This document shows, in pieces, positions 3,431-24,000 of a stretch of 24,000 nucleotides of DNA. Position 1 is the stretch's first letter. Each line of letters opens with the position of its first letter. The notes beneath the pieces were generated by a model, which was not told the DNA's origin, ran no database searches, and saw only the letters and a program-made list of their open reading frames with translations. A program made the translations under genes and the position numbers. Origin of the DNA: Idiomarina sp. PL1-037 (GTDB lineage Bacteria; Pseudomonadota; Gammaproteobacteria; Enterobacterales; Alteromonadaceae); assembly GCF_034422975.1 (NCBI RefSeq), contig NZ_CP139873.1:619810-643809 (forward strand). The letters are read 5' to 3'.

Positions 3431-4313
3431 GACTTCCCAGCTTTCTATTCGAGACTGTAAAAGATTTTGTGTAAATGGCTGACTGCACTGTTAAATCCGA
3501 TCATGATATATGATCTCGAATTGCGCCATGGCCGGTTTCCAGTTGCGCATGGGCATCGTCCACTTTTTCGATGCCTGATGCAAGGCTAAGTACAATACCT
3601 TCATGATGGCCTCATCATTCGGGAACGACCGGCGAGTCTTGGTAATTTTACGCAATGACGCGTTCAGCGACTCGATGGCGTTAGTGGTGTAGATAGCCTT
3701 ACGTATCTCCGCCGGGTATTCGAAGAATACGCTTAAGCGTTCCCAGTTTGCCCGCCATGAGCGGCTTATGGTCGGATGCTCTTCACCCCATCTTTCAGCG
3801 AACTCTTCCAGCGCCTGCTCTGTTGCAGCGCCATAAATTAGCTTTAAGTCAGCTGCGATGATCTTGCGTTGCTTCCAGTTTACGTAACGCAGAGAGTGGC
3901 GAATTTGATGCACAATGCACAGCTGTACCTGAGTCTTCGGGTAAACCGCTTCAATGGCTTCGGGGAAACCCTTCAGGCCATCGCAACAGGCGATAAAGAT
4001 GTCATCGACGCCGCGATGTTTAAGCTCGTTCATCACAGATAACCAGAATTTAGCGCCTTCGGTTTGCGCCATCCACAGGCCAAGGAGCTCTTTTTCACCG
4101 TTGGTGCTACGAACGGCCTTCTTGGTTTTGCCGTTACGGGAATTGCCGCTGTTATTGCCAGCCGCATCATTTGGGGCGTAGCCTAAATGGGCTTGCATCT
4201 CGGCTTCTAAAGTGCGTTCAGCGACTTTCTTGGTAAGCTGCTTGAGCAGCCCAGCTTCACCTAAAATGTCTTCTGGCGAGTCACAGCCATCAAGCAGCTG
4301 ATCGATGAGTTTG
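3430..4313 (-). mobile_element. IS256-family insertion sequence remnant (one end retained, other end lost; boundaries approximate)
   Basis: It contains the decayed IS256-type transposase gene. The 3' flank (gagactgtaaaagattttgtgtaaa, about 3451-3475) resembles IS256-family terminal repeats and abuts the truncated fic gene. The 5' part of the transposase gene and the other inverted repeat are missing where the tandem-repeat array starts. Confidence 0.7.
3491..4312 (-). pseudogene. IS256-family transposase, N-terminally truncated with an internal ~130-aa deletion
   Basis: Typical IS256 transposase blocks are present: KLIDQLLDG...LKQLTKKVAERTLEAEMQAHLGY, NSRNGKTKK, KELLGLW...AKFWLSVMNELKHRGV, CIVHQIRHSLRY, IYTTNAIESLNASLRKITK and KKWTMPMRNW. 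The reading frame upstream of Met-4198 stays open and homologous to about 4312 but has no start codon. The sequence jumps from ...RSTNGE directly to KELLGLW (junction about 4092-4097), deleting the segment that carries the first DDE Asp. Confidence 0.8.
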
Positions 4314-5325: not shown

Positions 5326-5630
5326 TATGTAGCGTCAATAGCCTTGCCGTATTACTGGTACACCTAAAACTACTGAGCTGGTTTAAGCATTCACAAAAGG
5401 TTGAAGAAATCGGAACTCAGCTCTGCCGAAGAGTTATTTTCAACTTCATGATCTTAACTAAAAATTGCACCAAAAGTTGAGATAGTGACACAAAACCATA
5501 ACAATACAGCAATAGAGTGGTCATAGAAGATGTCATTATTTGATCACAATTTTGCAATTAAAAAATTATTAAATGTAATAATTTGCGTTTAATGTACGTT
5601 CCTGATTTTAATAAATTAAAGAAGGAACTT

Positions 5631-8974: not shown

Positions 8975-9150
8975 AAACTTCGGTGACTGCTCCCCGCCCT
9001 GCCGGGCGAGGCCTCCAACTTCTTAGGCAGCAACCGGCGTGTGTCCGAATTTACGCAAGCCTCCATTGGCAGGAACCGACAGTCCTTCGGCTCTTAGTTT
9101 GATAATACCCTGCTGCCGAATATTGATCGCGGCGTTGATGTCGTGGTCAA
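8975..9150 (-). ncRNA. Putative omega-RNA (reRNA) scaffold of the TnpB element
   Basis: This is inferred from position only. In characterised TnpB systems the guide RNA scaffold overlaps the tnpB 3' end and the right-end hairpin. The guide would then read into the flank at 8950-8975, just upstream of rrtA. I did not model any structure or covariation. Confidence 0.3.
8981..9010 (-). repeat. IS200/IS605-type right-end hairpin, copy B (13 nt downstream of the tnpB stop)
   Basis: The minus strand reads CTCGCCCggcaGGGCGGGGAGCAGTCACCG, with a 7-bp stem including one G-U pair. It is the inverted partner of 8287-8316. Confidence 0.7.
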
Positions 9151-10204
9151 GCTCTGCTGTACAAGCCGGGCATGTCCACTTGCGCACCGACAACCGCAAA
9201 GAATCGGCCTTGTGGCCGCAGCATGAGCAGATCCTGGAGCTGGCAAACCATTGGTCGATCTTGACCAGATGTTTGCCATGCGCTTTAGCCTTGTACTCCG
9301 GCTTCTGAATCAGGCCGAACCAGCTTGCGTCAGCGATGTGCTTGGATAGCTTCCGGTTCTTCAGCAGGTTCTTCAGTTTCAATGTCTCGACCACCACCGC
9401 TTGGTTGTCGTCAATGAGTTGTCGGGACAGGTTGTGCTGGAAGTCAGTACGGTTATTCGCTAGGCGCTCATGCGCCTTAGCCAGTTTCAAGCGTGCTTTC
9501 GTACGACCTTTGCTGCCTTTCTGGCAACGGGATAAGACTTTCTGCTTGCGTCGTAAGTTAGACTGGGCGTGTTTCAGGAAACGGGGATTCGTCGTCTTGC
9601 TATCTTCGGAGTCGATAGCAAGATGGGTTAGCCCCATATTAATGCCCAGAACGGTATCAACGCTATGCAATGGGGCAGGTGTTTGCAAGCCGTCTTCGAC
9701 CAACAGCGAGGCGTAGTATTTCCCTGTTACCGTGCGCGATAGCGTTACGCTCTTGAGCTTTCCGCCCAATTCACGGTGAACTCGCGCCTTAATTGGTTTC
9801 ATCTTCGGCAATTTTTTCCAGTTTTCGCCAGCACTCACACTCATGCAGTGGTAGCTGGATTGTTTACCATGTTTGCGCTTAAACTTCGGATAACGAGCGG
9901 GAAGCTTCGGGTCAAAGAAGCTCTGGAAGGCTTTATCAAGGTTGATGCACGCTTGCTGGAGTGCAATCAAGTAAAAATTCTTTAGCCAATGGTACTTGCG
10001 GGATTTTTTCGCCACCGCCAACAGCGGCTTAAGGTCTTTTTTGGCCTTGAGCTTCAGGCCGTGGCGTTTGTACTGTGAGCTGATGATATGCAGCACCTTG
10101 TTATGCACGAACCGCATAGCACCGAACTGGCGGTTGAGAAACTCTGCCTGTTCAGGTGTCGGGTAGATGCGTACTTTTGTGACCGCTAACATTTCAGCGC
10201 TCAT
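9023..10204 (-). CDS. tnpB: IS200/IS605-family TnpB (OrfB) RNA-guided nuclease homologue with a RuvC-I Asp->Asn substitution
   Basis: The N-terminal block is VRIYPTPEQAEFLNRQFGAMRFVHNKVL. RuvC-II is AVVVETLKL. The zinc finger is CSCCGH...CPAC. RuvC-III is DHDINAAINI. RuvC-I reads LGINMGL instead of the near-universal GIDxG (AAT codon at 9638-9640). An alternative start is the Met at 10192. No Y1 tnpA gene is adjacent. Confidence 0.85.
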   Translation of the reverse strand: MSAEMLAVTKVRIYPTPEQAEFLNRQFGAMRFVHNKVLHIISSQYKRHGLKLKAKKDLKPLLAVAKKSRKYHWLKNFYLIALQQACINLDKAFQSFFDPKLPARYPKFKRKHGKQSSYHCMSVSAGENWKKLPKMKPIKARVHRELGGKLKSVTLSRTVTGKYYASLLVEDGLQTPAPLHSVDTVLGINMGLTHLAIDSEDSKTTNPRFLKHAQSNLRRKQKVLSRCQKGSKGRTKARLKLAKAHERLANNRTDFQHNLSRQLIDDNQAVVVETLKLKNLLKNRKLSKHIADASWFGLIQKPEYKAKAHGKHLVKIDQWFASSRICSCCGHKADSLRLSVRKWTCPACTAELDHDINAAINIRQQGIIKLRAEGLSVPANGGLRKFGHTPVAA

Positions 10205-12512: not shown

Positions 12513-12793
12513 ATGGCCGATAACTTATTCCCGCGAAATACAAAACAAAATCTAATCGAAGCCATTGACGATACGCCGGTCGTATTAATACATGGTTTGC
12601 GGCAATGCGGAAAAACAACCCTTGTTAAGTTTGTCGGTGAATTACTCGGCTATACCTACATTACCTTTGATGACGAAAACCAGTTGGCTGCAACAAAAGC
12701 CGACCCTGTGGTGGCGTTGTATTTTATGATGGCGACCAGGTACTACCTTTTGGTGAAAAACTCTATGCCGTTCCAATATCTCACCTGATGTAA
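12513..12793 (+). pseudogene. DUF4143/COG1373-type AAA ATPase remnant (internal deletion + frame change)
   Basis: The N-terminus, with Walker A (VVLIHGLRQCGKTTL), is followed after about 70 aa by the family's C-terminal end in another frame (VVFYDGDQVLPFGEKLYAVPISHLM*, stop 12791-12793). Roughly 300 aa of a normal ~400-aa protein is missing. Confidence 0.6.
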
Positions 12794-13231: not shown

Positions 13232-13513
13232 ATGAAGACGAAACGCTCAGAGCTCGTCGAAGGCCTCAGTCTCAGTATTGATAACCAGGAAATTGGTGTC
13301 ATATCTCATTATTCGGGCGGTAAGAACATTTTAGCCTTTTCGCCTAATTATGTGGCGTTGCCTGCAGAGAAACGCAACACATTTACGATGTCGCAATTGG
13401 TTAATGAACGGGCTCTTCGTAAACCACTTATCAGTTCGCAACGTTTACCGCCGGTATTATCCAATCTTCTACCCGAAGGGGGCATTAAGACACTGGATGG
13501 CACAAGCGCTTAA
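13232..13513 (+). CDS. HipA N-terminal subdomain protein (HipS-like), 93 aa, or the 5' half of a frameshifted hipA
   Basis: AGGAAAG precedes the ATG. The protein contains the HipA N-domain pattern ending LPPVLSNLLPEG. The frame changes at a G5 run (13478-13482), after which only 9 more codons are read before the stop. Confidence 0.6.
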   Translation: MKTKRSELVEGLSLSIDNQEIGVISHYSGGKNILAFSPNYVALPAEKRNTFTMSQLVNERALRKPLISSQRLPPVLSNLLPEGGIKTLDGTSA

Positions 13514-14495
13514 AGTCCATCAAGACAATGAGTTCCCTTTAATGGCGCACATGGGCCGGGGTTTGCCCGGAGGTCTTATTGCATCACCGATAGTTGCAGG
13601 TCAGCTACCAGTTTGGGCGCTTGATCATCGTGAACAGGTCGAAGCTATACAAATTGACGTCGCCACCCAACAAAACAAGTTTTCCCTTGCCGGCGTACAA
13701 ATGAAATTCTCTTCAGTTCGTCACAAAGACGGCAGATTTAATATCGGCACTGATGCCAATGATGACAGCTGGATCATTAAAACACCATCCACTGTGCATC
13801 AGTTTGTGCCTTTTAATGAGTTCTCCGCTATGCGTCTGGCGGAGGCTGTAGGCGTTGATATTCCAGAGATAAAATTGGTTAAATTATCTAAACTGGATAA
13901 TCTACCAAATATTCAATTGCCGAACGAAGAATACGCATACGCAATCAAGCGATTTGATAGAGACAATGGGAAACGAGTGCACACTGAAGATTTTGCTCAA
14001 ATATTCCAGGTATACTCTCATGAGAAATATGAAAAATACAACTATGAACAGATTGCGGATGCGCTCTACTCCTACAGCCACCAAGGCTTAAAAGACGTCC
14101 AGCAACTGGCTAGGCGTATACTTGTGAATATATTACTTGCCAACGGTGATGCACATCTTAAGAACTGGTCGGTGATATATTCCAACCCTCAACGGCCCAT
14201 GTTATCTCCCGCGTATGACATAGTTTCAACAATACCTTACGTCAAAGGCGTGAGTGAATTCGCGTTAAATATGGCCAAAAACAAAAATTGGTATGACGTG
14301 AGCATGGCATCGTTCGAAATTTGGTCTAATCGTGTTGGTTTTCCGTGGCAGGCTGTCAAAGTACACATAACGGATACATTAGATAAAGCTCGGTCTGTTT
14401 GGCCTAAATTATTAACCGAATTGCCGATGCATCGAGAGCACAAGCAAGTGCTAAGACATCATTGGTCGAAACTGCATGAAGATTTTAGGCTGTGA
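13497..14495 (+). CDS. HipA-family Ser/Thr kinase core (HipT-like), 332 aa from ATG 13497
   Basis: The Gly-rich loop is KFSLAGVQMKFS. The catalytic motif is NGDAHLKNWSV. SPAYDIVST is also present. The ORF-track N-terminal extension from 13350 is out-of-frame reading through the HipS-like gene. Homology to HipA (ALRHW..) resumes right at the G5 run. Confidence 0.7.
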   Translation: MAQALKVHQDNEFPLMAHMGRGLPGGLIASPIVAGQLPVWALDHREQVEAIQIDVATQQNKFSLAGVQMKFSSVRHKDGRFNIGTDANDDSWIIKTPSTVHQFVPFNEFSAMRLAEAVGVDIPEIKLVKLSKLDNLPNIQLPNEEYAYAIKRFDRDNGKRVHTEDFAQIFQVYSHEKYEKYNYEQIADALYSYSHQGLKDVQQLARRILVNILLANGDAHLKNWSVIYSNPQRPMLSPAYDIVSTIPYVKGVSEFALNMAKNKNWYDVSMASFEIWSNRVGFPWQAVKVHITDTLDKARSVWPKLLTELPMHREHKQVLRHHWSKLHEDFRL

Positions 14496-14540
14496 ATCGG
14501 CATTTCTCTTTCTTGCGTAGCTGGTTAGTTCACCTGGCGC

Positions 14541-15854
14541 CTAACGCAAAGTCAGCTCCAATGCGCGACCGCGCTCACGAATACGGTCTGTTATGATCCC
14601 GTACATATCGTCGGGTAGTGGCGTTCGAAAGCCACTTTCGACCACCTTGAATAGCTTGCCGATGAGCTGTTTTAGTTGTTTTTCCACCAGAGCCTTCGGT
14701 AAGCCTACGTTCACCCCAAGCTGCACGAAGTCGCTTTGGGTATAAAAACCAAACTGCTCGTAAGCGTCACTGAAATAGCCGTCGTCTCCCTCTTCTGTTG
14801 CGAGAACGCCAATCGACGTGAAACAGGCGTGATCAAACATGGGATAGGGCGCTAAACTCAGTACGTCATAGATAGGGGTTAACATATCCATTGTTGAATC
14901 TTTTCCAGAGGGCTTGCGCATTAAGGAAAAATTCTTCAAGTGTAAATCATTGTTCGCAACAAGGTATGAAAAAACGACGTGTAAAAATAGGTTGAGCGTC
15001 ACCGCTTTACTGTTTCCTGCGGCCTCGCTTAGTCTTTTTAAAACGGTTTCATAACTTAATGCGTCGCTGTCCTTATGTTTTGGGTGGACGTCACATAATG
15101 ACGCGCCGTCCTCGACAAAGTATCGCTCACTCTTGCTGAGAATATCGAAACGCTTCGTCACATAAGCCAACTCTCCGTCTTCAAAGGGGACAAGGCCACA
15201 TTCAGCGGTTTTGAGTCCAACCTTATTGGCTAGGCTCATAACGAAAAACTCATTCTCGGGGCAATGCGGTACACCTTCCGGTGCAGGCTTTACAATGTAT
15301 TGTCCGCCGCGAGTCGTTGGCACGAGTTGATTACCTTCCAACTTCATCATCAGTTTGCGCTGCACGCCCGATATGGAATGACCGTTTGCATGATCGACTG
15401 CATAGTCATTGAATGATCGTGACGTGCCAACAATGCTGACGCCTTTGTCTTTCAAAATACTGGGCTTAGGAATTGGTATTTGAACAGAGCGCTGGCCTGG
15501 TAAATCGTCAACCTCACCGGCGACCACAGAAATAGAGCCAATTAGCTCTTCGCCGTTGGCGCACAACAAACCAAACTCATCGCTTTTATCAAGTCGTGCT
15601 TTTTGTGCTTGGTGGGTTCTTAACCATCCCTCTGAGAGCAAATTAGTAAAGAAGGGCGGTAGAGCATCAAACCCATACTGGGTCTTTGTAAGCGGAAGAT
15701 GATGACCAATTGGTGAGCCGTTTTCTAGGTAGTCTGCTGCATACGCAAATGCATATGACTCACGAGCAGATAAGTCGTGCGAAGCACGATATTCGGTGAG
15801 TATGCCCGCCTTCACACCATTGACGAATACGGTTGCGATACGATTAACGTGCAT
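14541..15854 (-). CDS. hipA: HipA-family toxin kinase (full length, about 437 aa)
   Basis: The N-terminus is MHVNRIATVFVNGVKAGIL. LPPFFTNLLSEGWLR, SISGVQRKLMM (Gly-rich loop), ANNDLHLKNFSL (catalytic) and TPIYDVLS are present. I prefer ATG 15854 over the TTG at 15908. It overlaps the upstream gene's stop by 11 nt. Confidence 0.85.
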   Translation of the reverse strand: MHVNRIATVFVNGVKAGILTEYRASHDLSARESYAFAYAADYLENGSPIGHHLPLTKTQYGFDALPPFFTNLLSEGWLRTHQAQKARLDKSDEFGLLCANGEELIGSISVVAGEVDDLPGQRSVQIPIPKPSILKDKGVSIVGTSRSFNDYAVDHANGHSISGVQRKLMMKLEGNQLVPTTRGGQYIVKPAPEGVPHCPENEFFVMSLANKVGLKTAECGLVPFEDGELAYVTKRFDILSKSERYFVEDGASLCDVHPKHKDSDALSYETVLKRLSEAAGNSKAVTLNLFLHVVFSYLVANNDLHLKNFSLMRKPSGKDSTMDMLTPIYDVLSLAPYPMFDHACFTSIGVLATEEGDDGYFSDAYEQFGFYTQSDFVQLGVNVGLPKALVEKQLKQLIGKLFKVVESGFRTPLPDDMYGIITDRIRERGRALELTLR

Positions 15855-16161
15855 CGGTGCGGCCAACATACAGTGTATAGTTACCAAACACAGCGATAAT
15901 GGACTCAATCGTTGAGCACTTCGCTGAGGCTGGCGAAGTAAATGCAGCGTAGAGTGTTGTTTTGCTGATCATCGCTAGGTCGCAAAAAGTGTCGATGGTA
16001 ATATCGTTTTCTTTCACGTATTGAGTCACACGCTCCTTTAGCTCTGCGAGTGGAAAAAGCTCTTTTTCTTCAAGCTCTTTTGCTTCTAGTCGCTCGATTT
16101 CACGCAAAAGCGCATTAACTTGCTGCTTTAACTCTGTGATGTGACTTTTCATGTGCTTCAC
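15844..16161 (-). CDS. Putative antitoxin/regulator of the second HipA (N-terminal coiled coil + C-terminal HTH), 105 aa
   Basis: It is translationally coupled upstream of hipA. LKQQVNALLREIERLEAKELEEKE is heptad-like. FCDLAMISKTTLYAAF...TIESIIAVFG resembles an HTH. It is not a standard short XRE HipB. Confidence 0.6.
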   Translation of the reverse strand: MKHMKSHITELKQQVNALLREIERLEAKELEEKELFPLAELKERVTQYVKENDITIDTFCDLAMISKTTLYAAFTSPASAKCSTIESIIAVFGNYTLYVGRTDAR

Positions 16162-16539: not shown

Positions 16540-17103
16540 ATGGGCGCGCATGAGCTTAGATTAAAGTTACATGAACTGCAAAAGTATACACGCCATGCGC
16601 TTTTATCAATGGCGCAATTCAGTATGATCATGCCGGAATACTCGAGCAGTGCATTGAAAGTACGCCTGAATTACCTTGTTAAAAGAGGCGTACTTCAAAA
16701 AGTTTGCCGCGGAGTCTGGGCATTCCCTGAAAGTCATTATTACCAATCAACCAGCATTTTACATTTACCGTACTTAGTACGTCCGTCGAGTATTAACTAT
16801 CTGAGTTTAGAGTCGGTGCTTAGCAAGTACAGTGTCATTAGTCAGCAGATGTTTGACTATATTACTGTAATGACAACAGGCAGGAGTGGCATTTTCAAGA
16901 CGTCATTTGGAACTCTTGAGCTTACCCATACGAAGCGAGATCCTATGGCAATACTAACCGAAACACATCCACTTGGTGATTACCCATTGAGAGAAGCAAT
17001 GGTAAAACGGGCTTACTCGGACTTGAAAAACGTGGGACGTAATGTTGAATTGGTTGATTTAGAAGCGCTACACGAGGCTCTTAATGAGCAAAGCTCTCTT
17101 TAG
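16540..17103 (+). CDS. abiEi: AbiEi-family antitoxin (type IV TA / abortive infection), 187 aa
   Basis: The N-terminal winged-helix block is SALKVRLNYLVKRGVLQKVCRGVWAF. It sits immediately upstream of, and overlaps, a DUF1814 nucleotidyltransferase gene. Confidence 0.7.
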   Translation: MGAHELRLKLHELQKYTRHALLSMAQFSMIMPEYSSSALKVRLNYLVKRGVLQKVCRGVWAFPESHYYQSTSILHLPYLVRPSSINYLSLESVLSKYSVISQQMFDYITVMTTGRSGIFKTSFGTLELTHTKRDPMAILTETHPLGDYPLREAMVKRAYSDLKNVGRNVELVDLEALHEALNEQSSL

Positions 17104-18010
17104 GATGGCAAATATGAACATTAAAGCACTCGCACAGATGATCTGCGCTGATTCGACCGAATTAGCCGGTCTTCAAACAACAGTTGAAAAAGAACTTCTC
17201 CATTACGAAGTACTGGCATCAATGGCAAAATCCGGCTTTCTAAAGCAACTTATCTTTCAGGGCGGAACATGTTTGCGCATGATGTATGGATCCAACCGTT
17301 TATCTGAGGACTTAGACTTTGTTGGCGGAACGAACTTTGACTTTGAGCAGTTATCTCACCTTCGTGATTGCTTGAAGGATGATCTCTCTGGACGTCACAA
17401 CTTGAAAGTGAATGTCTCAGAGCCTAATTACGATAAATTGACCGACCAAAACAGGATCCGAGTAAGACGCTGGAAAATCTCTATCGAGACCGAGCCGGAG
17501 AAAAAAAGCCTGCCGTGGCAAAAAGTAAAATTAGAAGTAGCAACCGTCCCTGCTCATACGAAAATCCTGCGCCCTCTGGTAAAAACGTATCCGAGTGTGC
17601 CAGACGGTTACACCAGTATTTTCATTAACTGTGAATCACTCGAAGAAATTGCTGCAGATAAGTTCGTTGCGCTAGCATTGCGGCGCACGATAAAAGCCCG
17701 CGATGTTTGGGATATTGGATGGTTGAATCAGAGAAAAATAAAAGTCGATGCTGAGTTAGTGTGTAAAAAGTTCAAAGATTACCAGGAAACGGGCGGCTTC
17801 AAAGCACTTGCTGAACGATTAACCCAATTGCCCTCGTATATCGGAAGCGGTGACTTTGAGCGAGAAATGCGGCGCTTCTTACATTCATCAACGATTGAGG
17901 GTAGCATCGAGCAAGATGGTTTTATGGATTATCTTATCGATACAGTGGCTAGTGCAGGCCAGAAATTGTTAAACGAGCAACGTGACGGACCGGCTAAATT
18001 TAGCATGTAG
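17084..18010 (+). CDS. abiEii: AbiEii/AbiGii-family nucleotidyltransferase toxin (DUF1814)
   Basis: LIFQGGTCLRMMYGSNRLSEDLDFV is the hallmark GGTxL..R.S.DLDF nucleotidyltransferase motif of the family. ADKFVAL is also present. Alternative in-frame starts are at 17105 and 17114. Confidence 0.8.
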   Translation: MSKALFRMANMNIKALAQMICADSTELAGLQTTVEKELLHYEVLASMAKSGFLKQLIFQGGTCLRMMYGSNRLSEDLDFVGGTNFDFEQLSHLRDCLKDDLSGRHNLKVNVSEPNYDKLTDQNRIRVRRWKISIETEPEKKSLPWQKVKLEVATVPAHTKILRPLVKTYPSVPDGYTSIFINCESLEEIAADKFVALALRRTIKARDVWDIGWLNQRKIKVDAELVCKKFKDYQETGGFKALAERLTQLPSYIGSGDFEREMRRFLHSSTIEGSIEQDGFMDYLIDTVASAGQKLLNEQRDGPAKFSM

Positions 18011-18299: not shown

Positions 18300-18590
18300 T
18301 CAACAAATACGGTTCGGCGGCCGTTGTTGAGTAGCGTGAAGGACTCGAAGCACGCGGACTGGCACCCTGATCACGTCACAGACTAAAACATAATTTTGAT
18401 GAGCAACCAGCTCGCGAGTATCTGCCACGCGCCCAAGACGTCCTAGATTAGGATGTTCGGCTAATTGCGATGCCTTTTCTGAAAGCAGCTCATCTAGAGC
18501 TAAGGTCGCTGTGGGATTATCGGCTTCTATGTAATCATAAATGTCTTCGCGGTCTTGTATCGCCTCTGGCGTCCAAAGCAGCTCCATCAT
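18300..18590 (-). CDS. parE: RelE/ParE-family toxin, 96 aa
   Basis: LLWTPEAIQDREDIYDYIEADNPTATLALDELLSEKASQLAEHPNLGR.GRV.DTRELV...YVLVC is the ParE-type pattern. An ATGA start/stop overlap couples it to the upstream antitoxin gene. Confidence 0.8.
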   Translation of the reverse strand: MMELLWTPEAIQDREDIYDYIEADNPTATLALDELLSEKASQLAEHPNLGRLGRVADTRELVAHQNYVLVCDVIRVPVRVLRVLHATQQRPPNRIC

Positions 18591-18874
18591 TCAGAGTTTT
18601 TGAGCCGACGCCGCGTTGAAGCCCGACGAGCCGCAAATTCAGCTTCTACCTCAGCGGCAGGCACCAACTTACCAGCATTGGCCGAAGTCAGGCCAATCTG
18701 CACTTGTCGTCGGAACCAATCATCATGCTCTGCAGTTTCTTCCTGATGCTGTACGAATTCGCGCATGAAGTCTCGAAGAAGCTGCGCCCCGCTGCGGTCG
18801 CGAGACTTGGCGGCTTGAGCAAACTGGCTCTTCAAAGTCTCATCGACCCGAAATGTAAAAGTTGCTTCATTCAT
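18587..18874 (-). CDS. Ribbon-helix-helix antitoxin (ParD/CopG-like), 95 aa
   Basis: The N-terminus TFTFRVDETLKSQFAQAAKSRDRSGAQLLRDFMREFV fits an RHH fold. It is translationally coupled to the ParE-like gene. The pair is visibly more GC-rich than its neighbours. Confidence 0.7.
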   Translation of the reverse strand: MNEATFTFRVDETLKSQFAQAAKSRDRSGAQLLRDFMREFVQHQEETAEHDDWFRRQVQIGLTSANAGKLVPAAEVEAEFAARRASTRRRLKNSE

Positions 18875-19086: not shown

Positions 19087-19686
19087 TCATATAGGCTGCG
19101 TATCGCCACTCACGTTCCGTTGATGCTCTATAATGGCGTCTATCATTGATACCGCGCCTTTACTTAAGACGTACTTTGTCGAACTCACCTGAAAGATAAA
19201 CCCACACCGTTTTAGCATGCTGATAACGTTAGACTTATCCTTGAACTTTAACGCTCGTAATACTTGTTGCAGCTCTTCGTCACTATCCAGCATATCAATG
19301 TCAGCTACCGTTAACCCCTGAGCCGGCTCGCCGAGCAAGTGGAGAGGCTGCCCACGTTGTGTTGCTATACGCGCAAACAATGTTAATACCGCCATAACTT
19401 TTAAGGCGGCCTCATTAAATTCATCGTCTTCTTCGTCTTTAATTTTTGATTTAATGTGGAAAAATTCACCTTCACCATCATGCGCGAGGACATATCCCAA
19501 CTGCCAATACAGCGCTTCATAGTGACTATGATTGGTGACCAACTCTTGATACATGGAAGATTCTTTAAAGTCGGCAACGGACTGCACGTATTCGTGTTTG
19601 TTAATGATCCCGCCTTCAGCAAACATTTGATAAATGGCGCGTGAAAGATTAGGTGATGTTTGTGAGAACGTATTATTGATTTCCAT
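19087..19686 (-). CDS. Component C of the SMC-like operon: 199-aa acidic protein, possible MukE/MksE/JetB-like (KITE) subunit
   Basis: I prefer ATG 19686, preceded by AGAGGG, over ATG 19776. It overlaps the stop of component B by 14 nt. Its size, central acidic patch (KDEEDDEFNE) and two-lobed helical pattern are compatible with MksE-like proteins. This is resemblance only; I found no diagnostic motif. Confidence 0.6.
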   Translation of the reverse strand: MEINNTFSQTSPNLSRAIYQMFAEGGIINKHEYVQSVADFKESSMYQELVTNHSHYEALYWQLGYVLAHDGEGEFFHIKSKIKDEEDDEFNEAALKVMAVLTLFARIATQRGQPLHLLGEPAQGLTVADIDMLDSDEELQQVLRALKFKDKSNVISMLKRCGFIFQVSSTKYVLSKGAVSMIDAIIEHQRNVSGDTQPI

Positions 19687-21112
19687 CAGAACCCTCTGAA
19701 TGTTGTCGGGTGGCGGTAATATGACGAACGCAGTAACCCATTTCAGTAACAACCCCGGTATCAGGATCTTCTTCACGGATCTGCTTGAATGCCGGTAGTG
19801 CTTTAATCGTATACTGTTTGGAGGTCACCAGTGTGCTGCTTATCTCCAGCAAATCAGGTACTTTGAATCCTTCAAACGTGTTTTTGAGCTGTTCATAAGC
19901 ATGCGCGATAAAATCAACATTCTCCGGCCATGAATGCGATGTGACCCAGCGATTCAGACGAATTGAGTGCCGGATGGCAACAGCGCTGTCTTTTTGAATA
20001 ACGTCCTCAAACACCAATTTATCGTCGATACTATGGGCGCTTTGTAGGGTCCGGCGTGCCAGCTCATCAAACACGTTACTTAAAAAGGCCGGTTTCTTAT
20101 CAATCTGTATAGGGGCAGGGCGTTTGATTTTGCCCAGTGTTCGCTCCGGCGCTAAATCCTGCAGATCCGACAACTTGATATTTTTGAGCCGGCGATCGGC
20201 ACTTAATGTCTTATTATAAGCTTGCTTGATGATGACATAAGCCGACTCAATGGCGTTGTGCTCTGCAATCGCCTCTTTGGTCTTTCTCAGATAAATACTG
20301 ATATTGTCGGCGACCGCTTTTATTGGCTCGAATAAATCCAGGTATTGCAGATAGTAGTTCGTCATAAGCGCCTGGTACTCCAGATCGCCATTGCGGACAA
20401 AGACATTTTTTAACGCATCAATGGTCAGCAAAATACCATCACCTTTCTCGTAGCGCGTGTCTTTATCCAAAAATGAACTGAGCGGCTGCACTTCGCGACG
20501 ATAGAGTTTCGAGGCGTGCTCGAATTTAAACTTCATAGCATCAGGTAGCTCGCGCTCAGCCTCCTCTGCGATATCCTCCTGGAATTGTTCGCCAATCTGC
20601 TCCAGCTTCGTAATGTTGGCTTTTATTCGCCCGAGTAACCCCGTGATGTGGGCATTCAATGTGTCGGTCCATTCGTCGTATTCTTCAGTTCCCGGGGTAA
20701 GTGAAAGCCGCTTCTCATTGATATCTGACAGTATGGACCATATTGGCGTCATGGCTGACAGTAGTGAGGTTTTGTTCAACGGGCGATATAGGCTGATTTT
20801 GCACAGGCGAAATAAATCAATGATAACCGAGTTAAACCATAACTTTGTCACGCCGTCGGTGGCGCGTCGATCATCAAGCACCTTGGCAGACAATAAATTT
20901 TTATGGTCAAAAACGATGGTTACCTCTTTTTTCTTCTCTGCTGACAAGCCTTTTTTATATTCAGCTACCAGATAAAAGAATTCCGCCTCAATCACGGCAT
21001 TGCCCTGACGCTTATCAGACGTTTCAATAGCACGAAACATAAGCTCACGATGATTGAGCATTTTCAATATGGTTTCGATTGTACTGAAGCGTTTTTGTAT
21101 TAAGTCCGCCAT
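19673..21112 (-). CDS. Component B of the SMC-like operon: 479-aa helical protein, possible kleisin-like/middle component
   Basis: ATG 21112 lies 4 nt after the stop of component A, with GAGGTG 10 nt upstream. I recognised no catalytic motif. Its size is comparable to MukF/MksF/JetA. Confidence 0.6.
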   Translation of the reverse strand: MADLIQKRFSTIETILKMLNHRELMFRAIETSDKRQGNAVIEAEFFYLVAEYKKGLSAEKKKEVTIVFDHKNLLSAKVLDDRRATDGVTKLWFNSVIIDLFRLCKISLYRPLNKTSLLSAMTPIWSILSDINEKRLSLTPGTEEYDEWTDTLNAHITGLLGRIKANITKLEQIGEQFQEDIAEEAERELPDAMKFKFEHASKLYRREVQPLSSFLDKDTRYEKGDGILLTIDALKNVFVRNGDLEYQALMTNYYLQYLDLFEPIKAVADNISIYLRKTKEAIAEHNAIESAYVIIKQAYNKTLSADRRLKNIKLSDLQDLAPERTLGKIKRPAPIQIDKKPAFLSNVFDELARRTLQSAHSIDDKLVFEDVIQKDSAVAIRHSIRLNRWVTSHSWPENVDFIAHAYEQLKNTFEGFKVPDLLEISSTLVTSKQYTIKALPAFKQIREEDPDTGVVTEMGYCVRHITATRQHSEGSDGNQ

Positions 21113-21116
21113 AACT

Positions 21117-23993
21117 TCACACCTCAAGCGATGATTGAGAAGGTGGTGTATCCGGATGCTCGACGTTCAAATATTCTCGAAACCTCGGAATAGCGGTATT
21201 ACGCCGCTCTTTGCTGTATGGGTGTGTGGTTAGATTGTCGCGGGTGAACACCTGATAGCTGCCAATGGCTTCGAATACGGCACCGCTTTTCCCATCCACG
21301 GTCACGCCGATAAGGTAATGGCCTTTGTTGTTCAATGTGGCGATGAGCTCAGGGATCTGCGTTGTATCAATACTGCCAATTTCATCCACGATCAGCGGGA
21401 AGGCAATATGCGCAGATTGACTGGCCAGCTTATCAAGGAAGATGTCGCAAAAGTGGGTATTAATGAGCATGTGAGTCGATGTTGATTGTTTTTTGCTATC
21501 CCACGAGGCGCCAGCTTTGCGCGTTTCATATCGGGTGCCTTGAATGAGGTGATTAAGCCGCAATTTGCCATCATCGTCACTGACGGCCTTACTATCAACG
21601 AATTTTTGGAGCATGTTATACCACTCAAACGGTAACGTATTTTCGGTATTGAGCGAGTCGAAATTACGCCAACTGTCAACCAGGCTATTAAAAAGGGGCT
21701 CTAATTCAACAACAAGCCGGGCCTCTTCAATGTCGTTCATTGAGGCGCCTTCAATATCCCGGTTTATCTGGGAAACGGTGGTTTCGATCTTGTCTTTGGT
21801 TTTACTGAGCCGTTCCAGGCGGTTTCTAATATGCTCATTATGACGACGAGTATCTTGTGCCAGTACATCGCTGTTGTGTGATAGCAGCTCAAACTTTTGG
21901 GCCAGCATATTGAATGTATTAACGACGGCATCATCGCCATTGTCACGCTCAAGCAGTTGGTAGTCGTCACTTATCAGGCCGTCTTTGATCAGCTCGATAA
22001 GTTTCTGCTTGATTTCGTATTTGGCCTTTTCAGCGTCTTGCAGTGCATTTAATGTTCGTTGAAAGCTCTCCCCATCACCGACTTCGTCGCCGGTGGGGGC
22101 TTCTTCTTCACCTGCTAACACCGCGTCAAGACGTGTTTGCGCTGCTGGAAAGCGACAAATCGCGTTATGATACTGAGATAGCATCATGCTCAACGTTTTG
22201 GCCTTATCTTGCGTTGTGGATAATTTACTGCGTGCCTGGGTCAATTCACTATTATCTCGCTCGTAAGCCGTCTCTAGTTCCTGGTGTAATTCAGCATACT
22301 CATCCCGGTCTTTGATCCCTTGTTCATAATCAGCGGTTGCTGAATTGATTCTCTGGCAAGTCGCTGTATAACCCTCGATTTTTTCAATATCAGATTCGGC
22401 GCTTTTGATTTCTCGGGTTAGCACTTCAACCTTGTGCGAGCTATTGACTGCGTTGGTGTTGAGCTCTTTTAATTCCTTGAGCTCCTCTTTTAAATCGAAC
22501 AGTTCACTTTCAATATTCGTGATATCTTTTTCTGTGATGGGCTGATAGGGCTCACTGAGCAGCGGAATTGATTCATCAAAAAAATCAAGTGATCCGCCGC
22601 GCTCTATTAAAAGCTCGCAAAATTGATTAATTCGCGACAATTCATCGGTGGTTAAATCGCGCCCAGGATTCGCTTTTGCAAGATTGCTATTGACTGAATA
22701 CAGCTTGTTGTAAAGCGGCTCCGGTAGCTGGGCATGCAGGCTTTTCGATTTGTCCCGGATTTTAGCCTCTACTTTTTTTAGTTCTTGCTCCTTGTCTTTA
22801 ATGAGCTGCTCAATCTCTGTAATGCGTCGCTCCCGGGTGTTTTGCTCTGTCCGGTTCTTGTAGTCGCTTTGTTTTTCCTGCAGGTAATCTTTGAGTGATT
22901 CCAGGACGAACGATATACCCTCATCGGGATACGATGCGATGATCTGATCGCATTGGTTTTTTATCACCGTTTTTTGTTCAATCTCTTTATTTAATCGACT
23001 GACTTGTTTCTGGCTAACCTGCATATCAGTTAAGGCATTTTGCTTCTGTTGGCTCAGCGTTTTGCATTTTTGACTCAAGGTTTCAACGCGACGACCAATG
23101 GCGTCAGCTTGTTCCTCAAGCGATTGACAATGTGCTTTCGTATTTTGGTACAGACTTATAAATTGTGAGGTTGCGGCGTTTTTTTGCTGAAGTCGCGAAA
23201 ACTGCTCCTGAAGCTCAGTGAATTGAGGCTCAAGTGCACGTAATTGTGCTAACTGATCTTTGCGCTGGGTCAGCTCATGCTTTTTGCCGATAATTTCGTT
23301 GATATCGATTTCCAGTGTTTCATCAAATGCGTCCTGTGCCTCAACAGCAGTGGCTGTCATTAGCCTAAGAGAGCCCGCATCTTGATTAAACAGCATTTTG
23401 ACCAGCGCCCTGACGGAGTCGACTGAATTCGCACGGATATTATTGAGTGGGAAGATAGCAAACGGTGTGCTTGCCGGGTCCATGGCATTGAATGTATAGA
23501 GCGCTTCTATCAGCTGGTCGCGCTGTGAATACTGCTTAGCATTTTTATTCACTTCACGCAGTCGAGGGACTAGGTCCGAGCCGACCGGACTCGTCGGTCG
23601 GGTACCGTTGCCGTCGTCTTTTTGCCAGAACAGATGCTCAATAGCTTCGTAAGGCTCCGGGATAAAGACACGCTGTATTTTGTAATCCCCGCCTCTGGAG
23701 ATGATTTGGCAGTGACTCTGCGTCCCACCACCAAGAAGTTGATGCTCCACCTCAAGAATGAGGCGCGAATGCACGGTCGGGAAGTAGTAATTATAGAGTT
23801 CGTCCTTGTCGTAGTAACTCTCTTTGTCGTCGCTGTCTGCACCAGAGCGAAAGGCAAACTTATCTTTTGCCTGGTTTACGTTGGTATCCGGTAACAAGAA
23901 AAAGCGTACCGCATTGACCAGACTTGATTTACCGACATTACCAAGCCCCATCAGCAAGATATTGTCATTTAATAACGCTTCAGCATACGCCAT
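21117..23993 (-). CDS. Component A: SMC/Rad50-like coiled-coil ABC ATPase, 958 aa
   Basis: Walker A is LMGLGNVGKSS (residues 14-24). A long E/K/Q/L-rich heptad region spans about residues 230-700, with a non-coiled break around 440-500. Walker B is FPLIVDE (D870/E871, nt 21381-21386), followed by the D-loop IGSID. A possible degenerate signature, KKQSTST, lies about 30 aa upstream of Walker B. The start is 7 nt from the window edge, so upstream operon members cannot be seen. Confidence 0.8.
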   Translation of the reverse strand: MAYAEALLNDNILLMGLGNVGKSSLVNAVRFFLLPDTNVNQAKDKFAFRSGADSDDKESYYDKDELYNYYFPTVHSRLILEVEHQLLGGGTQSHCQIISRGGDYKIQRVFIPEPYEAIEHLFWQKDDGNGTRPTSPVGSDLVPRLREVNKNAKQYSQRDQLIEALYTFNAMDPASTPFAIFPLNNIRANSVDSVRALVKMLFNQDAGSLRLMTATAVEAQDAFDETLEIDINEIIGKKHELTQRKDQLAQLRALEPQFTELQEQFSRLQQKNAATSQFISLYQNTKAHCQSLEEQADAIGRRVETLSQKCKTLSQQKQNALTDMQVSQKQVSRLNKEIEQKTVIKNQCDQIIASYPDEGISFVLESLKDYLQEKQSDYKNRTEQNTRERRITEIEQLIKDKEQELKKVEAKIRDKSKSLHAQLPEPLYNKLYSVNSNLAKANPGRDLTTDELSRINQFCELLIERGGSLDFFDESIPLLSEPYQPITEKDITNIESELFDLKEELKELKELNTNAVNSSHKVEVLTREIKSAESDIEKIEGYTATCQRINSATADYEQGIKDRDEYAELHQELETAYERDNSELTQARSKLSTTQDKAKTLSMMLSQYHNAICRFPAAQTRLDAVLAGEEEAPTGDEVGDGESFQRTLNALQDAEKAKYEIKQKLIELIKDGLISDDYQLLERDNGDDAVVNTFNMLAQKFELLSHNSDVLAQDTRRHNEHIRNRLERLSKTKDKIETTVSQINRDIEGASMNDIEEARLVVELEPLFNSLVDSWRNFDSLNTENTLPFEWYNMLQKFVDSKAVSDDDGKLRLNHLIQGTRYETRKAGASWDSKKQSTSTHMLINTHFCDIFLDKLASQSAHIAFPLIVDEIGSIDTTQIPELIATLNNKGHYLIGVTVDGKSGAVFEAIGSYQVFTRDNLTTHPYSKERRNTAIPRFREYLNVEHPDTPPSQSSLEV

Positions 23994-24000
23994 GGATGAT

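What the first reader, a model, noticed from the sequence alone, without database searches (positions are those of the whole stretch)
19087..24000. Translationally coupled SMC/Rad50-like ATPase plus two partner proteins: candidate condensin-like (Mks/Wadjet-like) or ABC-three-component defence module with non-canonical gene order
SEEN: three minus-strand genes are tightly coupled. There is a 4-nt gap between A and B, and a 14-nt overlap between B and C, each with an SD inside the preceding gene. A (958 aa) has an N-terminal Walker A (GLGNVGKS), about 470 aa of coiled coil with a central break, and a C-terminal Walker B (LIVDE). This is the SMC/Rad50/MukB head-coil-head layout, but with no CxxC zinc hook and only a degenerate signature motif. 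B (479 aa) and C (199 aa, acidic) have sizes typical of kleisin (MukF/MksF/JetA) and KITE (MukE/MksE/JetB) subunits. KNOWN: mukFEB, mksFEB and jetABCD place the kleisin and KITE genes before the ATPase, and Wadjet adds a Toprim nuclease (JetD/MksG). Lamassu pairs a shorter SMC-like LmuB with an effector. INFERENCE: here the order is ATPase, then B, then C. No nuclease or effector domain is recognisable in B or C, and the operon sits at the end of a TA/abortive-infection island. It could be a permuted or divergent Mks/Wadjet relative, an ABC-three-component system, or an undescribed SMC-based anti-plasmid/anti-phage system. The operon may extend upstream beyond nt 24000.
Basis: partly seen in the sequence, partly recalled or inferred. 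Interest (0 to 1): 0.85.

Follow-up and report, generated by a model that had tools for sequence, protein, structure and literature searches.

The report
Permuted, divergent Wadjet-like SMC–nuclease operon
The three coupled genes are the SMC motor, kleisin and KITE subunits of a rare, unannotated relative of the Wadjet/MukBEF family, and its missing DNA-cutting (Toprim) subunit and a BrxR regulator lie just beyond the window end, in a gene order not described for Wadjet.

Summary
The three minus-strand genes are real, translationally coupled and under purifying selection. One correction: gene A runs off the window and is 978 aa, not 958.

- **C** passes Pfam's MksE (KITE) threshold.
- **B** has no sequence family. 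Its predicted fold best matches MukF and JetA kleisins.
- **A** has no sequence family beyond a P-loop. Its fold best matches MukB, then JetC, then Smc5/6.

The same contig, 100% identical to the window, continues upstream. There it encodes a 261-aa JetD_C-type Toprim protein with intact E and DxD residues, preceded by a BrxR/WYL regulator. All five genes overlap or abut.

The order short Toprim, SMC, kleisin, KITE holds in every relative examined, down to 22% SMC identity. It is the reverse of jetABCD/mksFEBG. PADLOC's JetA and JetB models and HMM searches of PDB sequences all miss the proteins. RefSeq calls the relatives seen "hypothetical".

Best reading: a fourth, compact Wadjet-like plasmid-restriction system. 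A divergent sister branch sits in core-chromosome contexts, next to sbcDC or recBCD in one related clade. No function was tested.

Verdict: new variant of a known kind, of moderate to high interest.

The parts
21117..24000 (-). SMC-family ATPase (JetC/MukB-like). It is truncated by the window: the full gene is 978 aa and its first 20 codons lie beyond nt 24000.
   Evidence: ORF and sequence. AF2 model of the 95%-identical P0017 has pLDDT 76.9 with a head-coil-hinge-coil-head layout. Foldseek against PDB gives MukB 2e-15, JetC type II 1e-12, Smc5/6 3.5e-11 and JetC type I 1e-10. No sequence-level family: Pfam finds only a sub-threshold P-loop hit, and PADLOC JetC/LmuB hits lie only in the coil.
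23922..23948 (-). Walker A / P-loop GLGNVGKSS (full-length residues 36-44)
   Evidence: G38, N39, G41, K42 and S44 are invariant in 20 homologues and kept in the distant branches.
22533..22754 (-). Small central hinge-like domain between the two coiled-coil arms (residues 434-507), with conserved ANPGR and FFDE motifs and no CxxC
   Evidence: Secondary structure of the AF2 model: four short helices and three short strands. Conservation of N462, P463, R465, F491, F492 and D493. No CxxC.
21459..21491 (-). Signature-like motif KQSTSTHMLIN (residues 855-865)
   Evidence: K854, Q856, S857, S859, T860, L863, I864 and N865 are invariant in 20 homologues. K-x-Q-S-x-x-T-x-x-L-I is kept in the distant branches.
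21381..21398 (-). Walker B PLIVDE (residues 886-891)
   Evidence: P886, D890 and E891 are invariant.
21294..21296 (-). H-loop position (residue 920), which is Asp here instead of the His found in the other 17 homologues aligned
   Evidence: Alignment column: VTVDGKS in the window protein, P0017 and P0018, against TTHGKS or TVHGKS in 16 others and GTHSSG in P0042, all with His at this position. The gene is still under purifying selection (dN/dS 0.11).
19673..21112 (-). Kleisin subunit (MukF/JetA-like), 479 aa
   Evidence: No Pfam, NCBIfam or PADLOC family, and none for distant members. AF2 model has pLDDT 73.8: N-terminal winged-helix region, long helical bundle, low-confidence linker (304-373) and C-terminal winged helix. 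The seven best Foldseek PDB hits are all kleisins, six MukF chains and the N. vireti Wadjet-II JetA, with probabilities 0.75-1.0 and E 1.8e-3 to 0.14.
19087..19686 (-). KITE subunit (MksE-like), 199 aa, acidic (pI 5.1)
   Evidence: Pfam PF21980 MksE, E = 3e-14, 54.1 bits against a cut-off of 27. The same family hits the last gene of every related cassette.

Best explanation
The window holds the last three genes of a five-gene operon: brxR, short Toprim nuclease, SMC ATPase, kleisin, KITE. Together these encode a compact, sequence-divergent relative of the Wadjet (JetABCD/MksBEFG) plasmid-restriction complex.

**Proposed mechanism**
1. The BrxR/WYL repressor keeps the operon low until a stress or ssDNA signal arrives.
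2. Two SMC chains dimerise through the small central domain.
3. The MukF-like kleisin bridges their ATPase heads through its N- and C-terminal winged helices, and carries a dimer of the MksE-like KITE.
4. The kleisin's N-terminal region probably joins two such motors, as in MukBEF and JetABC.
5. The holocomplex loads on DNA and extrudes loops using ATP.
6. On a small circular molecule extrusion runs to completion or stalls. The 261-aa Toprim dimer is then licensed to cut the trapped DNA.

**What is shown**
- The subunit identities, by profile or by fold.
- The conserved catalytic residues.
- The conserved gene order and translational coupling.
- The defence-island and BrxR context.

**What is inferred by analogy with type I/II Wadjet**
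- Complex formation, loop extrusion and circular-DNA specificity.
- How a Toprim protein lacking the DUF3322/aCAP-arm region docks on the complex.
For: **Subunit identities**
- C is MksE above Pfam's cut-off.
- B's seven best PDB fold matches are MukF or JetA kleisins.
- A's best matches are MukB and JetC.

**Upstream genes**
- The upstream 261-aa protein is JetD_C above Pfam's cut-off (32.5 bits against 22), with weak PADLOC JetD1/2/3 hits.
- Its I-E-N, D-x-D and E-Q-E residues are invariant in 14 relatives.
- The first gene is a BrxR/WYL protein with an RWHCR motif. BrxR/CapW regulators are documented upstream of defence systems, Wadjet included (PMC9122601, PMC11662680).

**Operon and context**
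- All junctions overlap by 4-14 nt or are 4 nt apart.
- The five-gene order is kept in Idiomarina-like, Pseudoalteromonas and Colwellia loci at 36-48% identity.
- The four-gene core is kept in much more distant loci.
- Purifying selection acts on all four core genes.
- The flanks carry HipA-type kinases, AbiEi/AbiEii, ParE and IS elements.
Against: - No function was tested, and no multimer model could be run.
- None of the four family profiles finds any solved Wadjet or MukBEF chain by sequence.
- PADLOC JetA and JetB models give nothing.
- The kleisin fold matches have modest E-values (best 1.8e-3), from a model with pTM 0.40.
- The Toprim protein has no DUF3322 match and is 84-169 residues shorter than the PADLOC JetD profiles, so the known JetD-JetB docking mode may not apply.
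- The window's own SMC has Asp in place of the H-loop His, which could weaken ATP hydrolysis.
- A sister branch of the family sits in core-chromosome contexts next to sbcDC or recBCD, without BrxR. Defence is therefore not the only possible role for the family.
Confidence: 0.7

Rival explanations
1. It is a chromosome-organising or DNA-repair-linked condensin (MksBEF/MukBEF-like) rather than an immune system. The Toprim protein would act as a topoisomerase-like or break-making partner on the host chromosome.
For: - A's and B's best fold matches are MukB and MukF, the housekeeping complex.
- The distant branch of the family lies among housekeeping genes (suf, MFS and similar).
- There it sits directly upstream of sbcD-sbcC in three loci whose SMCs are 79-82% identical, and divergent from recCBD in a fourth, with no BrxR.
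Against: - The window's branch is embedded in a toxin-antitoxin/Abi/IS island and is headed by a BrxR defence-type regulator.
- The family is very rare and patchy: 16-36 clusters per subunit in 5.8 billion proteins, 66 kleisin representatives in 1.84 billion, and 7 loci in 185,579 species genomes from a scan using two close-branch peptide patterns.
- A remote copy sits on a Photobacterium megaplasmid.
- A constitutively active Toprim nuclease on the chromosome would be costly.
Confidence: 0.15
2. It is an anti-phage rather than anti-plasmid SMC-like system, working like Lamassu or an ABC-three-component/abortive-infection module. The ATPase would sense phage DNA ends or replication intermediates and release a toxic nuclease.
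For: - Weak PADLOC LmuB hits (E about 1e-4) to A.
- The neighbours are abortive-infection-type modules: AbiE and HipA.
- BrxR-type regulators mostly accompany anti-phage systems (PMC9122601).
Against: - The LmuB and Rad50 hits fall only in coiled-coil segments.
- A kleisin and a KITE subunit are present. These are parts of Muk/Mks/Wadjet-type rings, not of Lamassu, whose partners are LmuA and LmuC (PMC10586767).
- The effector is JetD_C-type Toprim.
- There is no zinc hook.
Confidence: 0.1
3. It is a decaying or inactive remnant. The H-loop His-to-Asp change has disabled the motor, and the cassette is no longer functional in this genome.
For: The H-loop His is present in 17 of 20 homologues but is Asp in the window protein and its two closest clusters.
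Against: - All five ORFs are intact and coupled.
- The Asp variant is shared by clusters 89-95% identical.
- dN/dS against a 96%-identical relative is 0.11 for the SMC, 0.09 for the kleisin and 0 for the KITE.
Confidence: 0.05

Closest known systems
Wadjet / JetABCD (= MksBEFG, EptABCD), types I-III
   Same: - The same four subunit kinds: MukB-like SMC, MukF-like kleisin, KITE, and a Toprim nuclease of the JetD_C (DUF2220) family with E and DxD residues.
- Encoded as one operon.
- Found with BrxR/CapW-type regulators and in defence islands (PMC10586767, PMC9122601).
   Different: - Gene order is Toprim-SMC-kleisin-KITE instead of kleisin-KITE-SMC-Toprim (PMC10123090 and bioRxiv 10.1101/2025.03.10.642339 for the canonical order).
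- The Toprim protein is 261 aa with no DUF3322 hit, against 345-430-position PADLOC JetD profiles.
- The SMC is 978 aa, against 1111 aa for C. glutamicum MksB (PMC10123090) and about 1370 modelled residues for N. vireti JetC. Its central domain is only about 75 aa.
- PADLOC JetA and JetB models and HMM searches of solved Jet chains do not detect it.
MukBEF (E. coli-type condensin)
   Same: Best structural matches for both the SMC (MukB, E = 2e-15) and the kleisin (MukF, probability 1.0). The three-subunit SMC-kleisin-KITE core is shared.
   Different: - MukBEF has no nuclease subunit, and its genes run mukF-mukE-mukB (own knowledge).
- The longest solved MukB chain matched is 1467 residues, about 500 more than A.
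- No sequence-level similarity is detectable.
- This cassette is rare, patchy and island-borne.
MksBEF (Pseudomonas-type, no MksG)
   Same: The KITE subunit matches Pfam's MksE family (PF21980) above threshold. A shorter SMC than MukB is also shared.
   Different: - A Toprim gene is always present and comes first in the operon.
- NCBIfam's MksE equivalog model is far below its cut-off (13 bits against 400).
Lamassu (LmuABC) and Rad50/SbcC-type SMC-like ATPases
   Same: Coiled-coil ABC ATPase with split head. Weak coil-level profile hits.
   Different: - No zinc hook.
- The partners are a kleisin and a KITE, not LmuA/LmuC or Mre11/SbcD.
- Fold matches to Rad50 rank below MukB, JetC and Smc5/6.

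Membership tests
Wadjet (JetABCD/MksBEFG) | SMC-family ATPase of the MukB/JetC type | tested here: met
   Met by fold only. Foldseek gives MukB 2e-15, JetC-II 1e-12 and JetC-I 1e-10. Walker A, signature-like and Walker B motifs are conserved. The sequence models (PADLOC JetC, Pfam, PDB HMM search) give only coiled-coil-level or no hits.
Wadjet (JetABCD/MksBEFG) | MukF/JetA-type kleisin with N- and C-terminal winged helices | tested here: met
   Met by fold with moderate support. The seven best PDB matches are MukF or JetA (probability 0.75-1.0, E 1.8e-3 to 0.14). The model has N-WHD, bundle, disordered linker and C-WHD. No PADLOC JetA, Pfam or NCBIfam hit.
Wadjet (JetABCD/MksBEFG) | KITE subunit (JetB/MksE) | tested here: met
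   Pfam MksE PF21980, 54.1 bits against a cut-off of 27. PADLOC JetB models give no hit at E <= 1.
Wadjet (JetABCD/MksBEFG) | JetD/MksG nuclease: C-terminal Toprim (DUF2220/JetD_C) with catalytic acidic residues | tested here: met
   L001 6278-7063 hits JetD_C at 32.5 bits against a cut-off of 22. E127, D181 and D183 are invariant in 14 relatives.
Wadjet (JetABCD/MksBEFG) | JetD/MksG N-terminal DUF3322 (aCAP with arm) domain | tested here: not met
   No DUF3322 hit at E <= 0.1. The protein is 261 aa, with about 110 residues before the Toprim domain. MksG is defined as DUF3322 + DUF2220 in PMC10123090.
Wadjet (JetABCD/MksBEFG) | Operon order kleisin-KITE-SMC-nuclease (jetABCD / mksFEBG) | tested here: not met
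   The order is nuclease-SMC-kleisin-KITE in all 16 loci that cover the whole cassette, drawn from 9 distinct lineages.
Wadjet (JetABCD/MksBEFG) | ATP-dependent restriction and cleavage of circular plasmid DNA | not testable with these tools
   Needs transformation assays and in vitro cleavage.
MukBEF | Nuclease-free mukFEB operon serving as the host's main condensin | tested here: not met
   A Toprim gene is coupled to the SMC gene. The setting is a TA/Abi/IS island. No sequence match to MukB, MukF or MukE chains in PDB.
Lamassu | LmuB SMC-like ATPase with an LmuA effector (and LmuC), without kleisin or KITE | tested here: not met
   LmuB hits lie only in coiled-coil stretches. The partners are a kleisin and a KITE.
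Rad50/SbcC | CxxC zinc hook at the coiled-coil apex, and an Mre11/SbcD partner | tested here: not met
   No CxxC anywhere in A. No metallophosphatase gene in the window operon.
BrxR/CapW regulator family (first gene of the operon, outside the window) | wHTH-WYL-WCX architecture with an RWHxR motif, upstream of a defence system | tested here: met
   Precomputed Pfam hits to WHD_BrxR, WYL and BrxR_CTD. WYL at 38.1 bits against a cut-off of 21.8. PADLOC WYL at 4e-17. RWHCR at residue 182.

The most novel reading that the evidence does not exclude
The cassette (short DUF7281/JetD_C Toprim, roughly 960-980-aa SMC, kleisin, MksE) is a separate, so far unclassified lineage of Muk/Mks/Wadjet-type SMC complexes, not a shuffled type I-III Wadjet. 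It has its own way of coupling a minimal Toprim nuclease to the motor.

Its BrxR-headed branch would be an immune system. Its sister branch, fixed next to sbcDC or recBCD in the core chromosome, would be a host DNA-maintenance machine. That would offer a natural pair for asking how an SMC-nuclease complex switches between immunity and housekeeping.
Probability: 0.25. Interest if true: 0.8.

Novelty: new variant of a known kind. Interest (0 to 1): 0.62.

Why it matters
- **Detection gap.** Wadjet is the model for how a loop-extruding SMC motor recognises and destroys foreign circular DNA. Only types I-III, all jetABCD-ordered, have been described in the papers found here. This cassette is missed by the PADLOC JetA and JetB models, gets only coiled-coil-level JetC hits and weak JetD hits, and its relatives are annotated "hypothetical". 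Current defence-system censuses therefore likely miss it.
- **A minimal version of the machine.** It has a shorter SMC with a tiny hinge-like domain. Its Toprim subunit lacks the DUF3322 region, the aCAP part through which type I JetD is reported to contact JetB's IFDR motif (PMC10586767). It could show which parts of the Wadjet design are essential and how else a nuclease can be licensed by an SMC ring.
- **Immunity versus housekeeping.** The chromosomal sister branch beside sbcDC and recBCD bears on the open question of whether chromosome-organising Muk/Mks complexes and immune Wadjet complexes interconvert.

Tried and rejected
**Searches that found nothing**
- Megablast of the region against E. 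coli genomes and PLSDB plasmids: no match.
- tblastn of B against phages: no match.
- Single-sequence and family-profile HMM searches of all four subunits against PDB sequences: only coiled-coil noise or nothing.
- NCBIfam: only coil-level Rad50/SMC hits, far below cut-offs.
- Inverted repeats upstream of brxR, as a possible operator: none found.
- Promoter and terminator scan across the operon: promoter-like sites below and terminator-like sites only about 2 SD above the shuffled expectation, and no plus-strand terminator downstream of C.

**Tools or papers not available**
It was rerun with the 95%-identical P0017 as first row.
- Krishnan et al. 2020 (ABC ATPase classification) and Petrushenko et al. 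2011 (Mks family) are not held. I could not check whether either mentions this arrangement.

**Literature on novelty**
- Searches for a type IV, permuted or "JetD-like" Wadjet and for DUF7281 found nothing relevant.

**Readings considered and rejected**
- Rad50/SbcC: no zinc hook and no Mre11 partner.
- Lamassu and ABC-3C: the partners are a kleisin and a KITE.
- Pseudogenised remnant: dN/dS is far below 1.
Full report
**Observation**

- A's TGA (21119-21117) is followed by four bases and then B's ATG at 21112.
- B's TAA (19675-19673) overlaps C's ATG at 19686 by 14 nt.
- Purine-rich Shine-Dalgarno-like runs (GAGGTG, AGAGGG) precede both starts.

The starts giving 479 aa for B and 199 aa for C agree with independent gene calls and with homologue lengths.

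One correction is needed. No in-frame stop lies between A's ATG at 23993 and the window end. Looking up B's exact sequence returned one 58-kb contig (L001, Logan SRR26974595). It is 100% identical to the window over all 14,328 shared bases. On it, A starts 60 nt further upstream and is 978 aa long. The extra N-terminal strand, KIIIKRIVAVD, is typical of an ABC/SMC head.

**What lies just beyond the window**

On L001 two more genes precede A on the same strand, and each overlaps the next by 4 nt.
- **A 304-aa BrxR-type regulator.** It has precomputed hits to WHD_BrxR, WYL and BrxR_CTD, a Pfam WYL hit at 38 bits, and a PADLOC WYL hit at 4e-17. It carries an RWHCR motif like the RWHVR motif of CapW/BrxR repressors (PMC11662680).
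- **A 261-aa Toprim protein.** It passes Pfam's threshold for JetD_C, the Toprim domain of the Wadjet nuclease (32.5 bits against 22). It also gives weak hits to PADLOC JetD1, JetD2 and JetD3 models.

**Identity of the three window proteins**

- **C** matches Pfam MksE (PF21980) at E = 3e-14 and 54 bits against a cut-off of 27. That makes it a KITE subunit.
- **B** matches no Pfam, NCBIfam or PADLOC family.
  - Ten of its more distant relatives were scanned and none matched either.
  - An AF2 model built on 16 homologues has pLDDT 73.8 and pTM 0.40. It shows an N-terminal winged-helix region, long helices, a low-confidence linker (residues 304-373) and a C-terminal winged helix.
  - Its seven best Foldseek matches in the PDB are all kleisins. 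Six are MukF chains and one is the JetA of the Neobacillus vireti type II Wadjet.
  - Probabilities are 0.75-1.0 but E-values are modest, 1.8e-3 to 0.14.
- **A** gives only a sub-threshold P-loop hit in Pfam, and coiled-coil-level hits to JetC, LmuB, Rad50 and SMC models.
  - An AF2 model of the 95%-identical P0017 has pLDDT 76.9.
  - It shows head (1-240), coil (251-433), a small central domain (434-507), coil (508-768) and head (777-936).
  - Foldseek ranks MukB first (2e-15), then type II JetC (1e-12), Smc5/6 (3.5e-11) and type I JetC (1e-10). Condensin and Rad50 follow.
  - Walker A, a signature-like K-x-Q-S-x-S-T-x-x-L-I-N motif and Walker B are invariant in 20 homologues, and recognisable at 22-24% identity.
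  - There is no CxxC.

**The Toprim subunit**

An alignment of 14 relatives down to about 20% identity keeps these residues invariant:
- I126-E127-N128, the Toprim glutamate;
- D181-x-D183;
- G158;
- E252-Q253-E254;
- R69, A72 and H80 in the short N-terminal part.

All 36 clusters found are 215-288 aa, and all but one 260-288 aa. The short form is thus a constant of the family, not a truncation. It gave no DUF3322 hit, whereas MksG is defined as DUF3322 + DUF2220 (PMC10123090).

**Conservation and distribution**

The five-gene order is kept in six complete loci at 36-48% identity. These comprise L001, a near-identical MAG, three Pseudoalteromonas luteoviolacea strains and a Colwellia MAG.

The four-gene core has the same order in much more distant loci, with SMC identity of 20-25%. 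The core is a short Toprim of about 260-290 aa, an SMC of about 960-980 aa, a kleisin of about 460-505 aa, and an MksE of about 180-217 aa.

A remote copy lies on a 599-kb Photobacterium damselae plasmid. Two extra small genes sit between its SMC and kleisin genes, and every gene but one inserted DUF5406 gene is annotated "hypothetical protein".

The family is rare:

| Search | Result |
|---|---|
| Kleisin against 5.8 billion proteins | 16 clusters |
| SMC against 5.8 billion proteins | 26 clusters |
| Toprim against 5.8 billion proteins | 36 clusters |
| Kleisin profile against 1.84 billion representatives | 66 hits |
| Scan of 185,579 species genomes (limited to close-branch patterns) | 7 loci |

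Named hosts are marine Gammaproteobacteria: Idiomarina, Shewanella, Vibrio, Pseudoalteromonas, Colwellia and Photobacterium. No source attaches a functional name to any A or B homologue.

Against the 96%-identical relative, dN/dS is 0.28 for the Toprim gene, 0.11 for the SMC, 0.09 for the kleisin and 0 for the KITE.

**Context**

The operon is flanked on both sides by mobile and toxin-antitoxin genes:
- four HipA-type kinase genes with HTH partners;
- AbiEi/AbiEii;
- a ParE toxin with a small upstream partner;
- an Xre/MbcA-ParS-type antitoxin;
- an IS605-type TnpB, an rve fragment and a truncated Mutator-family transposase.

BrxR/CapW regulators are documented upstream of many defence systems, Wadjet among them (PMC9122601, PMC11662680).

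**Mechanism proposed**

By analogy with type I and type II Wadjet (PMC10586767; bioRxiv 10.1101/2025.03.10.642339):
1. SMC dimers closed by the kleisin and carrying KITE dimers load on DNA and extrude loops using ATP.
2. On small circular DNA the motors reach a terminal state.
3. That state licenses the Toprim dimer to cut.
4. BrxR limits expression.

What is shown here: the subunit kinds, the catalytic residues, the gene coupling, the conserved order, purifying selection and the context. What is inferred: assembly, loop extrusion, target specificity and nuclease licensing.

Because no DUF3322 region was detected, the reported contacts between type I JetD and JetB's IFDR motif may not apply (PMC10586767). 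No IFDR was seen when reading C's N-terminal residues. The nuclease-motor interface is probably different.

**Comparison with known systems**

It works like, and is built like, Wadjet, but it fails three membership features.
- **Operon order.** D-C-A-B here, against A-B-C-D.
- **Nuclease N-terminal domain.** No DUF3322 domain was detected in it.
- **Recognition by existing models.** PADLOC JetA and JetB give nothing and JetC gives coil-level hits only. HMM searches of solved Jet and Muk chains find nothing.

It is also more compact. The SMC is 978 aa, against 1111 aa for C. glutamicum MksB (PMC10123090) and far longer MukB and type II JetC chains.

It is not MukBEF or nuclease-free MksBEF, because a Toprim subunit is always present. 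It is not Lamassu or ABC-3C, because the partners are a kleisin and a KITE. It is not Rad50/SbcC, because there is no zinc hook.

I found no paper describing a fourth or permuted Wadjet type, nor DUF7281. Two key comparative papers could not be read, so prior mention elsewhere cannot be excluded.

**Caveats and open points**

1. The kleisin assignment rests on a moderate-confidence model and modest E-values, although the specificity of the top hits and the gene's position support it.
2. The window's SMC and its two nearest clusters carry Asp at the H-loop position, where the other 17 homologues have His. The genes are nevertheless under purifying selection.
3. A sister branch lacks BrxR and sits among housekeeping genes.
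   - It lies directly upstream of sbcD-sbcC in three loci whose SMCs are 79-82% identical.
   - It lies divergent from recCBD in a fourth locus.
   - This may be inherited synteny within one clade, or a functional link to DNA-end processing. It keeps a non-immune role open for part of the family.

**Verdict**

I rate it a new variant of a known kind, interest 0.62.

Noticed in passing
window 21294-21296 (codon for residue 920 of the SMC): The H-loop histidine, conserved in 17 of 20 homologues (TTHGKS, TVHGKS or GTHSSG), is Asp (VTVDGKS) in the window protein and its two nearest clusters (89-95% identical). The gene is still under purifying selection (dN/dS 0.11).
   Followed up: partly
L012-L014 8001-16822; L015 8001-16810; L018 9001-18867; L019; L016/L017 1-14872: A distant branch of the same four-gene cassette (SMC 22-25% identical to the window's) has no BrxR and lies among housekeeping genes. 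It sits directly upstream of sbcD-sbcC in three lineages whose SMCs are 79-82% identical, and divergently next to recC-recB-recD in another. This could be inherited synteny or a functional link to DNA-end processing.
   Followed up: partly
L020 (Photobacterium damselae plasmid NZ_CP090497.1, 208874-215474): A remote copy of the cassette lies on a 599-kb plasmid. Two extra small genes (a DUF5406 protein and a 147-aa protein) are inserted between the SMC and kleisin genes. RefSeq calls every gene but the DUF5406 one 'hypothetical protein'.
   Followed up: partly
window 13350-16161, plus L001 1-3943 (beyond the window end): HipA-type kinase genes are unusually dense. Four HipA_C-containing genes, two with Couple_hipA domains and adjacent HTH genes, lie within about 21 kb and flank the SMC operon on both sides.
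   Followed up: no
window 16540-18010 and 18300-18874: An AbiEi-like/AbiEii pair (187 and 308 aa, overlapping) and a ParE-toxin gene with a 95-aa upstream partner lie directly downstream of the operon. The partner has no Pfam hit.
   Followed up: no
window 9023-10204 (-), 3491-4198 (-), 12513-12788 (+): Mobile-element debris: an IS605-type TnpB (OrfB_IS605 + Cas12f1-like TNB), a Mutator-family transposase covering only the C-terminal half of the profile (truncated), and a 91-aa AAA_14 fragment.
   Followed up: no
window 5583-8072 (+) and 6-2861 (+): Two large genes unrelated to the finding. One is an 829-aa protein with a lamin-tail domain plus an endonuclease/exonuclease/phosphatase domain. 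The other is a 951-aa subtilase with CarboxypepD_reg and MAM-like domains.
   Followed up: no
L001 6278-7063 (equivalent to window coordinates 24050-24835, outside the window): The short Toprim protein's N-terminal ~110 residues carry invariant R69, A72 and H80 (S-R...A...S-H motif) in all 14 relatives aligned. Some family members hit Pfam DUF7281 rather than, or as well as, JetD_C. The role of this N-terminal part is unknown.
   Followed up: partly
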